Positions 37,648 through 39,530 of a DNA stretch of 64,000 bases are shown here, in pieces. The stretch is from contig CP086569.2 of assembly GCA_009914755.4 (NCBI GenBank), positions 1,504,001-1,568,000 on the forward strand, read 5' to 3'. Positions within the stretch are counted from its first letter, which is position 1, and every line of letters begins with the position of its first letter. Source of the DNA: the human T2T-CHM13v2.0 reference genome, Homo sapiens. The notes under the pieces were generated by a model. That model did not search any database. It had not been told where the DNA came from and saw only the letters and a list, made by a program, of their open reading frames with translations. The translations under genes and the position numbers were made by a program.

Positions 37648-39530
37648 TCTTTCTCTCTTTCTCTCTCTTTCTCTTTCTCTCTTTCTCTTGCTCTCTTTCT
37701 CTTTCTCTCTTTTTCTTTCTCTTTCTCTCTCTCTTTCTCTTTCTCTCTCTTTCTCTTTGTCTCTCTTTGTCTCTCTGTCTCTCTGTCTCTCTCTTTGTCT
37801 CTCTCTCTCCTCTTTCTCTCTCCTCTCTCTTTCTCTCCTCTCTTTCTCTCTTTCTCTCCCTCTCTCTCTCTCCCTCTTTCTCTTTCTCTCTTTCTCTCTC
37901 TTTCTCTTTCTCTTTCTCTCTCTCTTTCTCTCTCTCTTTCTCTCTCTCTTTCTCTCTCTCTTTCTCTCTCTTTCTCTCTTTCTCTCTTTCTCTTTCTCTC
38001 TCTCTCTCTTTCTCTTTTTCTCTCTTTTCTTTCTCTTTCTCTCTCTCTCTCTCTTTCTCTCTCTCTTTCTCTCTCTCTTTCTCTCTTTCTCTCTCTCTCT
38101 CTCTTTCTCTCTCTTTCTCTCCTCTCTCTTTCTCTCTTTCTCTCCCTCTCTCTCTCTCCCTCTCTTTCTCTCTTTCTCTCTCTTTCTCTCTCTTTCTCTC
38201 TCTCTTTCTCTCTCTTTCTCTCTCTCTTTCTCTCTCTCTTTCTCTCTCTCTTTCTCTCTCTCTTTCTCTCTCTCTTTCTCTCTCTCTTTCTCTCTCTCTT
38301 TCTCTCTCTTTCTCTCTTTCTTTCTCTTTCTCTCTCTCTCTCTTTCTCTTTTTCTCTCTTTTCTTTCTCTTTCTCTCTCTCTCTCTCTCTTTCTCTCTCT
38401 CTTTCTCTCTCTCTTTCTCTCTCTCTTTCTCTCTCTCTTTCTCTCTCTCTTTCTCTCTCTCTTTCTCTCTCTCTTTCTCTCTTTCTCTCTCTCTCTCTTT
38501 CTCTCCTCTCTCTTTCTCTCTTTCTCTCCCTCTCTCCCTCTCTTTCTCTCTTTCTCTCTTTCTCTCTCTTTCTCTCTTTCTCTCTCTTTCTCTCTCTCTT
38601 TCTCTCTCTCTTTCTCTCTTTCTCTCTCTCTTTCTCTCTCTCTTTCTCTCTCTCTTTCTCTCTCTCTTTCTCTCTCTCTCTCTTTCTCTCTCTCTCTTTC
38701 TCTTTCTCTCTCTCTCTTTCTCTTTTTCTCTCTTTTCTTTCTCTTTCTCTCTCTCTTTCTCTCTCTCTTTCTCTCTTTCTCTCTCTCTTTCTCTCTCTCT
38801 TTCTCTCTCTTTCTCTCTCTCTTTCTCTCTCTCTTTCTCTCTCTCTTTCTCTCTCTCTTTCTCTCTCTTTCTCTCTCTCTCTCTTTCTCTTTCTCTCTCT
38901 TTCTCTCTCTTTCTCTCTCTCTTTCTCTCTCTCTTTCTCTCTCTCTTTCTCTCTCTCTTTCTCTCTCTTTCTCTTTCTCTCTCTCTTCTTCCTCCCTCCC
39001 TCTCTTCCTCCCTCCCTCTCTTCCTCCCTCCCTCTCTTCCTCCCTCCCTCTCTTCCTCCCTCCCTCTCTTCCTCCCTCCCTCTCTTCCTCCCTCCCTCTC
39101 TTCCTCCCTCCCTCTCTTCCTCCCTCCCTCTCCCTCCCTCTCCCTCCCTCTCCCTCCCTCTCCCCCTCCCCCTTTCTCTCTGTTTCTCTTTCTCTTTCTC
39201 TCTGTTTCTCTTTCTCTTTCTCTCTGTTTCTCTTTCTCTCTGTTTCTCTTTCTCTCTGTTTCTCTTTCTCTTTCTCTCTGTTTCTCTTTCTCTTTCTCTC
39301 TGTTTCTCTTTCTCTGTTTCTCTTTCTCTGTTTCTCTTTCTCTGTTTCTCTTTCTCTCTCTCTTTCTCTCTTTCTCTCTTTCTCTCTTTCTCTCTCTCTT
39401 TCTCTTTCTCTCTCTCTTCCTCTTTTTCTCTCTCTCTCTTTCTCTTTCTTTCTCTCTTTCTCTCTCTCTTCCTCTTTCTCTTTCTCTCTCTCTCTTTCTC
39501 TCTTTCTCTCTTTCTCTCTCTCTTTCTTTC
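37648..39530. repeat. 1.9-kb uninterrupted polypyrimidine (plus) / polypurine (minus) tract: (CT)n, (TTTCTC)n, (CCTCCCTCCCTCTCTT)n and (TCTGTTTCTCTTTCTC)n sub-blocks
   Basis: Essentially no purines on the plus strand for ~1880 bp, except rare G in the 39180-39360 sub-block. It abuts the 3' end of a minus-strand L1 at 39531, where the L1 poly-A would be. All 618-662-aa ORFs in the track over 37568-39651 are artefacts of this tract. Confidence 0.95.

What the first reader, a model, noticed from the sequence alone, without database searches (positions are those of the whole stretch)
37648..39530. 1.9-kb pure polypyrimidine/polypurine mirror-repeat tract grown from the tail position of an L1: strong H-DNA (triplex) former
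For about 1880 bp the plus strand is virtually all C/T ((CT)n, (TTTCTC)n, (CCTCCCTCCCTCTCTT)n sub-blocks). The tract starts exactly where the poly-A of the minus-strand L1 fragment (39531-40735) should be. It is therefore most simply an extreme expansion of an L1 3' A-rich/(GAAA)n tail into GA/CT microsatellites. Tracts of this length and purity are rare. They can form intramolecular triplexes, stall replication and transcription, and are mutational hotspots. They also explain the 618-662-aa artefactual ORFs in all frames of the supplied track.
Basis: partly seen in the sequence, partly recalled or inferred. Interest (0 to 1): 0.5.

Follow-up and report, generated by a model that had tools for sequence, protein, structure and literature searches.

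The report
Kilobase CT/GA repeat at L1 tail
A 1.9-kb stretch of almost pure C/T sits where the A-rich tail of an old, truncated L1 retrotransposon should be; it is a real, unusually long example of a known thing, a retrotransposon-tail microsatellite that could form triplex DNA, and it is not a gene or a new kind of element.

Summary
Window 37646-39530 is 1.88 kb with no A and 16 G on the plus strand, including a 1384-bp uninterrupted pyrimidine run. It abuts, with no gap, the 3' end of a minus-strand, 5'-truncated L1 (39531-~40735; ORF2p residues 946-1274). Four other L1 3' ends in the window carry ordinary 25-60-nt A-rich tails at this position. The purine strand is the L1 sense strand.

New evidence: the flanks of the [tract+L1] block form one arm of an inverted repeat. 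The other arm, about 1.3 kb away, is uninterrupted and holds 31 nt where this arm holds the 3.1-kb block. That arm is a paralogous empty site.

The tract is a compound repeat of TTTC(TC)n units. It includes three non-identical copies of a 300-390-bp higher-order unit, so it grew by slippage and by larger unequal exchange.

About 95% of it lies in perfect mirror repeats (longest arm 59 nt). One block carries a G-quadruplex motif on the purine strand. Triplex formation, instability and assembly accuracy were not testable.

Best reading: an L1-tail-seeded homopurine/homopyrimidine array. It is a rare but known kind, closest to the PKD1 intron-21 tract. The 618-662-aa ORFs are artefacts. Interest is low to moderate.

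The parts
37444..37619 (+). Left flank: outer part of inverted-repeat arm X
   Evidence: 82% identical over 177 bp to the reverse complement of 40996-41171 (E 6e-39). Both ends of the match are sharp.
37620..37645 (+). 26-nt junction segment: CC, T9 (37622-37630), CCAATTGAAGCTAGC (37631-37645)
   Evidence: Read directly. It does not align with the 31 nt at the same place in arm X' (P 0.53). T9 may be the distal remnant of the L1 poly(A). The 15-mer may be a weak target-site-duplication copy or a short 3' transduction. This is unresolved.
37646..37812 (.). Degenerate left edge of the tract: TTTC(TC)n units with 6 G interruptions
37813..38113 (.). Higher-order repeat copy A (301 bp)
   Evidence: Carries the C-rich landmark at 37813-37876 and the T5/T4 landmark CTCTTTTTCTCTCTTTTCTTTCTC at 38012.
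38114..38497 (.). Higher-order repeat copy B (384 bp)
   Evidence: The same landmarks occur in the same order, at 38114 and 38346. Copies differ in the number of 12-mer units.
38498..38985 (.). Higher-order repeat copy C plus a run of TTTCTCTCTCTC units
   Evidence: Landmarks at 38498 and 38720.
38986..39172 (.). C-rich block: (CTTCCTCCCTCCCTCT)x9, then (CCCTCCCTCT)n. The purine strand carries a G-quadruplex motif.
   Evidence: 65% C. A canonical G3+N1-7 x4 motif lies on the minus strand at 39122-39172.
39173..39344 (.). Block of 22-, 16- and 14-nt units, each containing one G (TTTCTCTCTG TTTCTC TTTCTC)
   Evidence: 10 regularly spaced G, showing that a mutated unit was itself amplified.
39345..39530 (.). 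L1-proximal block of mixed TTTC(TC)n units; 186-bp pure pyrimidine run
   Evidence: On the L1 strand it reads G AAAG AAAG AGAGAG... directly after the L1 end.
39531..40735 (-). 5'-truncated old L1: C-terminal 330 residues of ORF2 plus the 3' UTR, with frameshifts and stop codons
   Evidence: Matches ORF2p residues 946-1274 of PDB 8sxt (E 1e-159) at 82% amino-acid identity. The 3' end aligns to a young L1 at 43314-43718. The last 7 nt (ACATATG, 40728-40734) are shared with the flank, which indicates a microhomology junction.
40728..40760 (+). Right flank: inner part of inverted-repeat arm X, where homology resumes after the L1
   Evidence: Matches the reverse complement of 40936-40964 at 26 of 29 aligned bases. 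0 of ~5,000 random window segments reached this score, and 6e-4 of shuffles did.
40936..41171 (-). Uninterrupted arm X', the paralogous 'empty site'
   Evidence: It holds 31 nt (40965-40995) where arm X holds 26-28 nt plus the tract plus the L1.

Best explanation
The tract is a compound homopurine/homopyrimidine micro- and minisatellite seeded by the A-rich tail of a 5'-truncated L1 that inserted, in minus orientation, into one arm of a pre-existing inverted repeat.

Inferred history: A-to-G changes in the tail produced GAAA and GA units. Replication slippage expanded these into TTTC(TC)n arrays. Mutated units founded secondary arrays, namely the 16-mer C-rich block and the 22-mer G-containing block. 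Unequal exchange or replication restart then triplicated a 300-390-bp segment.

The product is non-coding. By sequence criteria it is a dense cluster of H-DNA (intramolecular triplex) motifs plus one G-quadruplex motif. By analogy with studied tracts, it is expected to slow polymerases and to vary in length.

Shown here: composition, boundaries, L1 identity and 3' end, strand polarity, absence from the paralogous arm, higher-order structure, and mirror symmetry. Inferred only: the tail as the seed, the order of events, and any structural or biological effect.
For: (1) Position. The tract begins at the base after the L1 terminal GTACAAT (39531). Four other L1 3' ends in the window carry 25-60-nt A-rich tails at that same position.

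(2) Polarity. The purine strand is the L1 sense strand.

(3) Empty-site proxy. The flanks 37444-37619 and 40728-40760 are homologous to contiguous sequence in the inverted arm 41171-40936. That arm has 31 nt in place of the 3.1-kb block. Those 31 nt are purine-rich in the orientation in which the tract is pyrimidine-rich. The tract is therefore not an expansion of ancestral sequence at that site.

(4) No CT-rich sequence lies on the far side of the L1. This contrasts with the Alu at 2482-2760, which has (CTTT)n on both sides and clearly inserted into an existing tract.

(5) Other retroelement tails in this window have become microsatellites, including (AAT)n, (TAAA)n, (CAAA)n and (GAAA)n. The mechanism is well established in the literature (PMC3812793; the RFC1 AAGGG repeat in an AluSx3 tail, PMC11667243).

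(6) Long mirror repeats in the human genome arise from expansion of simple tandem repeats, and H-motif repeats are especially prone to expand (PMC12214015).

(7) Ordered landmarks occur three times at 301-384-bp spacing, and the copies are not identical.
Against: No significant target-site duplication brackets the tract plus L1. The candidate CAAT(T)GAA gave P about 0.33.

A 26-nt non-repeat segment containing a T9 run separates the tract from the flank. The simple picture of 'L1, tail, target-site duplication' therefore does not fit cleanly, and a target-site deletion or a short 3' transduction must be invoked.

At 1.88 kb the tract is about 25 times longer than the longest Alu tail array in the window (73 nt) and about 70 times the median of 26 nt, so it is an extreme outlier for its proposed class.

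No orthologous sequence or population data could be examined. The L1 subfamily and the family of the inverted repeat could not be named, because no repeat library was available.
Confidence: 0.68

Rival explanations
1. A CT microsatellite already existed on the plus strand of arm X. The L1 later integrated at its right-hand edge, using the T-rich strand as nick and primer site, with little or no poly(A) of its own.
For: T-rich polypyrimidine tracts are attractive L1-endonuclease targets. The window holds a clear case, an Alu inside a (CTTT)n tract at 2392-2981 in the same relative orientation. No pure poly(T) remains between the tract and the L1. No significant target-site duplication was found.
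Against: Integration within or at the edge of a tract should leave CT-rich sequence or a CT-rich duplication on the far side of the L1; none is present. The paralogous arm has no tract, and its 31 nt at the site have the opposite purine/pyrimidine polarity. This reading requires two independent events at the same point.
Confidence: 0.17
2. The tract is real, but its length or internal arrangement in this assembly is wrong. GA/CT-rich triplex-forming DNA is poorly covered by long reads and could be mis-assembled, either expanded or collapsed.
For: HiFi coverage drops out across GA-rich sequence and fragmented the T2T-CHM13 assembly graph (PMC9186530). Triplex-forming AG-rich repeats cause long-read sequencing bias (bioRxiv 10.64898/2026.07.13.738322).
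Against: The sequence is not a uniform array. It has ordered sub-blocks, and the three higher-order copies differ in unit counts. A simple expansion artefact would not produce that. Read support could not be checked here.
Confidence: 0.1
3. The tract is a selected functional element, for example a regulatory, chromatin or splicing element such as a binding platform for polypyrimidine- or GA-binding proteins, or a replication or transcription barrier kept by selection.
For: Long homopurine/homopyrimidine tracts are non-randomly placed in introns of certain gene classes (Bacolla 2006, as cited in PMC2577344). H-DNA motifs affect transcription and replication in model systems (PMC11667243).
Against: Nothing in the window indicates function. 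No gene or exon was identified nearby. The architecture is that of neutral repeat turnover. The location is a retroelement tail in an Alu-, L1- and VNTR-dense region.
Confidence: 0.04
4. The 618-662-aa open reading frames encode low-complexity proteins.
For: Five long ORFs are listed.
Against: All six frames are open only because the plus strand has no A and the minus strand has no T, so no stop codon can be spelled. The translations are (LS)n/(FS)n or (ER)n/(EK)n runs. The minus-strand start codons lie outside the tract, and the plus-strand ones at or near its left edge.
Confidence: 0.01

Closest known systems
PKD1 intron 21 pyrimidine-rich element (PyRE), 2.5 kb, human
   Same: Both are kilobase-scale and almost pure C/T on one strand, built of many separate mirror repeats rather than one perfect repeat. 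PKD1 has 23 perfect mirror repeats in 2.5 kb (PMC11667243). This tract has at least 17 non-overlapping perfect repeats with arms of 15 nt or more in 1.9 kb. Both also contain G-rich sub-blocks able to form G-quadruplexes.
   Different: The PKD1 tract lies in a known transcribed intron and has experimental evidence for triplex formation, replication stalling and fragility. Here the gene context is unknown and nothing has been tested. This tract abuts an L1 3' end, which is not part of the PKD1 description used here.
Retrotransposon poly(A)-tail-derived microsatellites (Alu and L1 tails; FXN GAA, RFC1 AAGGG in an AluSx3 tail)
   Same: The array sits at the 3' end of a non-LTR retrotransposon. 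It is purine/A-rich on the element's sense strand, and a substitution in the tail followed by slippage explains the motif (PMC3812793, PMC11667243).
   Different: Typical tail arrays are tens of nucleotides long: median 26 and maximum 73 nt for 53 Alu tails in this window. This one is 1.88 kb, compound, and has a higher-order repeat. No target-site duplication was confirmed.
(TC)n / (GA)n H-DNA motifs mapped by S1-seq in mouse, and H-motifs catalogued in T2T-CHM13
   Same: It is a homopyrimidine mirror repeat of the C(TC)n type, the class for which triplex formation has been mapped genome-wide in vitro (PMC9171763). Arms above about 25 nt fall in the range where H-motifs are over-represented (PMC12214015).
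   Different: Individual perfect arms here are moderate, at most 59 nt. The longest perfect H-DNA arm reported in CHM13 is 797 bp (PMC11879447). What is unusual here is the total length of the homopyrimidine run, not any single mirror repeat.
rDNA intergenic-spacer CT-rich tracts
   Same: They are long pyrimidine-rich microsatellite blocks embedded among Alu elements, in the most H-DNA-dense compartment of the human genome (PMC11879447).
   Different: The window contains no rRNA gene. Rfam found only one Alu-like SRP match. This is therefore not an rDNA unit.

Membership tests
H-DNA motif (homopurine/homopyrimidine mirror repeat) | One strand at least 90% purine or pyrimidine | tested here: met
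   99.15% pyrimidine on the plus strand, including a 1384-bp uninterrupted run.
H-DNA motif (homopurine/homopyrimidine mirror repeat) | Mirror symmetry: arms of at least 10 nt with a short spacer (8 nt or less) | tested here: met
   680 perfect mirror repeats cover 95% of the tract, with a longest arm of 59 nt. There are 9 non-overlapping repeats with arms of at least 25 nt. Coverage exceeds Markov-shuffled controls.
H-DNA motif (homopurine/homopyrimidine mirror repeat) | Actual formation of an intramolecular triplex (S1 or chemical probing, supercoil or pH dependence) | not testable with these tools
   No triplex energy model or experimental data were available. The claim rests on analogy with C(TC)n repeats (PMC9171763) and the PKD1 tract (PMC11667243).
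Retrotransposon-tail-derived microsatellite | The array starts immediately after the element's 3' terminal sequence | tested here: met
   The L1 ends at ...AAAGTACAAT (39531) and the tract begins at 39530. Four control L1s in the window start their tails at the same position.
Retrotransposon-tail-derived microsatellite | The A/purine-rich strand is the sense strand of the element | tested here: met
   The L1 is on the minus strand, and the minus strand of the tract is A/G only.
Retrotransposon-tail-derived microsatellite | Element plus array bracketed by a target-site duplication | tested here: inconclusive
   The candidate CCAATTGAAGCTAGC / ACAATGAATGTCAGGC is not better than chance (P about 0.33). 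The alternative is a 31-nt target-site deletion with an ACATATG microhomology junction.
Retrotransposon-tail-derived microsatellite | Array and element absent from the empty (pre-insertion) site | tested here: met
   Met only through a paralogue. Inverted arm X' (41171-40936) is contiguous where arm X is interrupted by the 3.1-kb block. An orthologous empty site was not available.
LINE-1 (L1) insertion | Homology to ORF2p and the L1 3' UTR, colinear up to the 3' terminus | tested here: met
   ORF2p residues 946-1274 (E 1e-159), 82% identity, with frameshifts and stops. The 3' 400 bp are 83% identical to a young L1 in the window.
LINE-1 (L1) insertion | Assignment to a named subfamily and age | not testable with these tools
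   No Dfam, Repbase or RepeatMasker was available. It can only be called 'old, not L1HS', from 82% amino-acid identity and multiple disablements.
G-quadruplex motif | Four or more runs of at least 3 G separated by loops of 1-7 nt | tested here: met
   Minus strand 39122-39172. With loops up to 9 nt the whole 38986-39172 block qualifies (sequence shown).
PKD1-type intronic pyrimidine-rich element | Located in a transcribed intron, with demonstrated polymerase stalling or fragility | not tested
   No gene could be assigned to the window, and no functional data exist here.
Protein-coding gene | ORF with non-trivial composition, homologues or domains | tested here: not met
   The frames are open because A is absent from the plus strand and T from the minus strand. 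The translations are dipeptide-like repeats.

The most novel reading that the evidence does not exclude
The tract could be a recent, lineage-specific runaway expansion, in which H-DNA-driven instability pushed an L1 tail array past a threshold. Beyond that threshold, 300-390-bp segments would duplicate by break-induced or unequal exchange. The tract would then act as a fragile, recombinogenic site that contributes to the unusually high density of minisatellites and VNTRs in this 64-kb region. If so, it would be a natural autosomal model of kilobase-scale H-motif expansion, comparable to PKD1 but with a datable origin in the L1 insertion.
Probability: 0.12. Interest if true: 0.45.

Novelty: new member of a known kind. 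Interest (0 to 1): 0.27.

Why it matters
Kilobase homopurine/homopyrimidine tracts are uncommon. About 800 uninterrupted tracts over 250 bp were reported for the human genome (cited in PMC2577344). They are linked to replication stalling, breakage, repeat-expansion disease and long-read sequencing dropouts.

This locus has a clear anatomy: a datable L1, a paralogous empty site, and a visible higher-order repeat. That makes it a useful worked example of how a retrotransposon tail can grow into such a tract. It is also a place where assemblies and variant calls should be treated with caution. It does not reveal a new mechanism or a new class of element.

Tried and rejected
- Target-site duplication search between the left flank and the sequence after the L1: not significant.
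- Pfam scan of the L1 conceptual translation: no family was reported, although the PDB search identified ORF2p.
- Rfam scan of the whole window: only an Alu-like SRP match, so rDNA context is excluded.
- Gene identification from non-repeat ORFs with Pfam: nothing found.
- Look-up of a flank ORF in the assembly collection, to find other copies of the locus: not on record.
- Metagenome scan for a 24-mer shared by both inverted-repeat arms, to learn whether they belong to an interspersed family or to recover human contigs: 0 hits. A locus-specific scan was therefore judged pointless.
- Extension of the inverted repeat into the 175-bp spacer (40761-40935): not significant (P 0.11).
- DNA-transposon reading of the inverted repeat: no matching target-site duplication outside the arms, by inspection.
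- MAFFT alignment of the higher-order copies: uninformative in such low-complexity sequence. Rare-word landmarks were used instead.
- Large-scale mirror symmetry between the G-containing end blocks: the motifs are mirror images (CTCTTTGTCTCTC versus CTCTCTGTTTCTC), but this has a 50% chance expectation and was dismissed.
- Bacolla et al. 2006 could not be read. Its numbers are cited second-hand from PMC2577344.
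Full report
**1. What is in the sequence**

Window 37648-39530 (+) is 1883 bp with T 1078, C 789, G 16 and A 0. GC skew and AT skew both sit at -1.0 for about 1.3 kb. All 16 G lie in two edge zones (37690-37797 and 39182-39344). The core 37798-39181 is an uninterrupted 1384-bp pyrimidine run. The next longest run in the window is 90 bp.

The right coordinate is exact. TRF reports one array with periods of 8 and 12.

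**2. Internal anatomy**

Parsing at every TTTC shows that the tract is a chain of TTTC(TC)k units. These are mostly 12-mers (TTTCTCTCTCTC), 8-mers and 10-mers. Rare words show a higher-order structure.

- The 24-mer CTCTTTTTCTCTCTTTTCTTTCTC occurs exactly three times, at 38012, 38346 and 38720.
- A C-rich landmark (TTTCTCTCCTCTCTC...CCCTC...CCCTC) precedes each of them, at 37813, 38114 and 38498.
- The segments between landmarks have the same order of unit types but different unit counts.

The tract therefore contains three non-identical copies of a 301-384-bp higher-order unit. Three more blocks follow:

- a C-rich block of nine 16-mers plus 10-mers (38986-39172, 65% C);
- a block of 22-, 16- and 14-nt units that each carry one G (39173-39344);
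- a mixed L1-proximal block (39345-39530).

Growth was therefore by slippage, by amplification of mutated units, and by duplication of segments of several hundred bp.

**3. The neighbour is an L1, and the tract sits at its tail position**

The minus strand of 39531-40735 translates, across several frameshifts and stop codons, to the C-terminal 330 residues of LINE-1 ORF2p. The match is to PDB 8sxt residues 946-1274, E 1e-159, at 82% identity. The 3' UTR follows.

A search for the L1 3' terminal motif finds five L1 3' ends in the window. Four are followed directly by ordinary A-rich tails of about 25-60 nt. One is the young L1 at 43718, whose tail reads AATAATAAAATAAAAATAAAAAAA. The fifth, at 39531, is followed directly by GAAAGAAAGAGAGAG..., which is the tract read on the L1 strand.

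The position is therefore exact, and the purine strand is the L1 sense strand.

**4. A paralogous empty site**

This is new evidence. The left flank 37444-37619 (+) is 82% identical over 177 bp to the reverse complement of 40996-41171 (E 6e-39), and the match has sharp ends.

Homology resumes immediately on the far side of the L1. Positions 40728-40760 (+) match the reverse complement of 40936-40964 at 26 of 29 aligned bases. None of about 5,000 random window segments reached that score, and 6e-4 of shuffles did.

In the uninterrupted arm X' the two homology blocks are separated by 31 nt. In arm X they are separated by 26-28 nt of unrelated sequence plus the tract plus the L1, about 3.1 kb in all. 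The tract and the L1 thus occupy a single point in a sequence whose paralogue has neither.

The 31 nt in X' (AACCAGAAAAGAAATCGAGAAGGAAGAC in X orientation) are purine-rich on the strand where the tract is pyrimidine-rich. The tract is therefore not an outgrowth of the ancestral sequence at that site.

The L1 5' truncation point shares ACATATG with the flank (X' has ACATCTG). This is the kind of microhomology junction commonly described for truncated L1s, which I cite from my own knowledge.

**5. What remains unclear at the left junction**

Between arm X and the tract lie CC, a T9 run and CCAATTGAAGCTAGC (37620-37645). Two readings are possible.

- (a) The 15-mer is a decayed copy of a roughly 16-nt target-site duplication, whose other copy is ACAATGAATGTCAGGC after the L1. 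The match is not better than chance (P about 0.33).
- (b) The L1 nick was at TATAT(T)CC/AA, T9 is the distal remnant of the poly(A), the 31 nt were lost as a small target-site deletion, and the 15-mer is a short 3' transduction or filler. In this reading the tract descends from an internal, source-locus tail.

Both readings keep the tract in an L1 tail position. I could not decide between them.

**6. Rival origin**

An existing CT microsatellite could have been the L1 target. The window contains a genuine case of that scenario: a minus-strand Alu at 2482-2760 lies inside a (CTTT/CCTT)n tract, with CT repeats on both sides.

The focal L1 has no CT sequence on its far side. The paralogue shows no tract at the site. 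The rival also needs two independent events at one point. I give it about 0.17, against about 0.68 for tail seeding.

**7. How unusual is it?**

The 53 Alu tails in the window have a median A-rich length of 26 nt and a maximum of 73 nt. Several have become (AAT)n, (TAAA)n, (CAAA)n or (GAAA)n arrays. The focal tract is about 25 times the maximum, which makes it an extreme outlier within a common class.

Published counts give about 3,000 homopurine/homopyrimidine tracts over 100 bp and more than 800 over 250 bp in the human genome (PMC2577344, citing Bacolla 2006). In T2T-CHM13 only 560 perfect simple-repeat blocks exceed 250 bp (bioRxiv 10.64898/2026.07.13.738322). A 1384-bp uninterrupted run therefore lies in the far tail, but the class is known. 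The best-studied example is the 2.5-kb PKD1 intron-21 element with 23 perfect mirror repeats (PMC11667243).

**8. Non-B DNA potential**

- 95% of the tract lies in perfect mirror repeats with arms of at least 10 nt and spacers of at most 8 nt.
- 48% lies in repeats with arms of at least 20 nt, against 3% and 15% in order-1 and order-3 Markov controls.
- The longest perfect arm is 59 nt, at 38199-38257 plus its mirror.
- There are at least 17 non-overlapping perfect repeats with arms of at least 15 nt, 9 with at least 25 nt and 3 with at least 40 nt. An imperfect mirror with at most 10% mismatch reaches 152 nt per arm.
- The purine strand of 39122-39172 carries a canonical G-quadruplex motif.

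Arms above about 25 nt are in the range where H-motifs become over-represented and are thought to hinder replication (PMC12214015). C(TC)n repeats give triplex-type S1-seq signals (PMC9171763). In CHM13 the longest perfect H-DNA arm is 797 bp (PMC11879447). This locus is thus a dense cluster of moderate motifs, like PKD1, and not a single giant one. Whether a triplex actually forms, whether polymerases stall and whether the tract is unstable were not testable here.

**9. ORFs**

All six frames are stop-free across the tract for 643-672 codons. The plus strand has no A and the minus strand has no T, so no stop codon can be written. Five frames acquire a start codon outside the tract or at its left edge and are listed as 618-662-aa ORFs with dipeptide-like translations.

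**10. Assembly caution**

GA-rich, triplex-forming DNA causes HiFi coverage dropouts and assembly breaks (PMC9186530; bioRxiv 10.64898/2026.07.13.738322). The exact length and unit counts should therefore be treated as provisional. The ordered, non-identical sub-blocks argue against a crude expansion artefact. Read support could not be examined.

**11. Context**

The window is primate DNA and is very dense in Alu and L1 sequence. It is unusually rich in minisatellites. No gene, exon or structured RNA could be assigned. External copies of the locus could not be recovered.

**12. Verdict**

The finding is real, and its interpretation is supported. This is an L1-tail-seeded compound homopurine/homopyrimidine array of exceptional length, with a higher-order repeat. 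By sequence criteria it is a strong H-DNA candidate with an added G-quadruplex block. It is a new member of a known kind, closest to the PKD1 element in form and to retroelement-tail microsatellites in origin. Interest is low to moderate (0.27). The value of the locus lies in its clean anatomy and in the caution it calls for in assembly and variant calling, not in novelty.

Noticed in passing
window 37444-37619 and 40728-40760 (+) versus 40936-41171 (-): An inverted repeat with arms of about 236 nt at about 82% identity and a 175-bp spacer. The left arm is split by the tract plus L1. The family is unknown. There are only two copies in the window, no matching duplication outside the arms, and no hits for a shared 24-mer in the metagenome collection.
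   Followed up: partly
window 2392-2981: A minus-strand Alu (2482-2760, with an intact T20 tail) lies inside a (CCTT/CTTT)n polypyrimidine tract that continues on both sides. This is a clear case of a retroelement inserting into an existing CT tract.
   Followed up: partly
window 3562-3871, 7480-8330, 17143-17912, 22554-24146, 53672-56033, 58004-58501: An unusually high density of minisatellite/VNTR arrays, with units of 49, 133 (Alu-derived), 117, 339, 126/255 (unit looks L1-derived, not tested) and 43 bp and 5-19 copies each. This suggests a region prone to unequal exchange, possibly subtelomeric or pseudoautosomal.
   Followed up: no
window 38986-39172, minus strand: The C-rich 16-mer/10-mer block of the tract gives a G-quadruplex motif (GGGAGGGAGAGGGAGGG...) on the purine strand. 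This adds a second type of non-B potential to the triplex motifs.
   Followed up: partly
window 43314-43718 (+): A 405-bp 5'-truncated L1 3' end that looks young, with a patterned tail AATAATAAAATAAAAATAAAAAAA. It was used as the in-window control for where an L1 tail starts.
   Followed up: partly
window ~40876-40990 (-): An exon-like open frame ([38 protein letters not shown]) ending at a CAG|GTGAG donor-like site. It lies inside the inner part of the uninterrupted arm and the spacer. The acceptor context is poor and no homology search was made.
   Followed up: no
window 12427-12855 and 14987-15967: Long TG/TA/CA-rich compound repeats that also generate artefactual low-complexity ORFs of up to 326 aa.
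   Followed up: no
window 60099-63450 (-): A much less decayed L1 with long intact stretches of ORF2 (endonuclease and reverse-transcriptase regions). It appears considerably younger than the L1 next to the tract.
   Followed up: no
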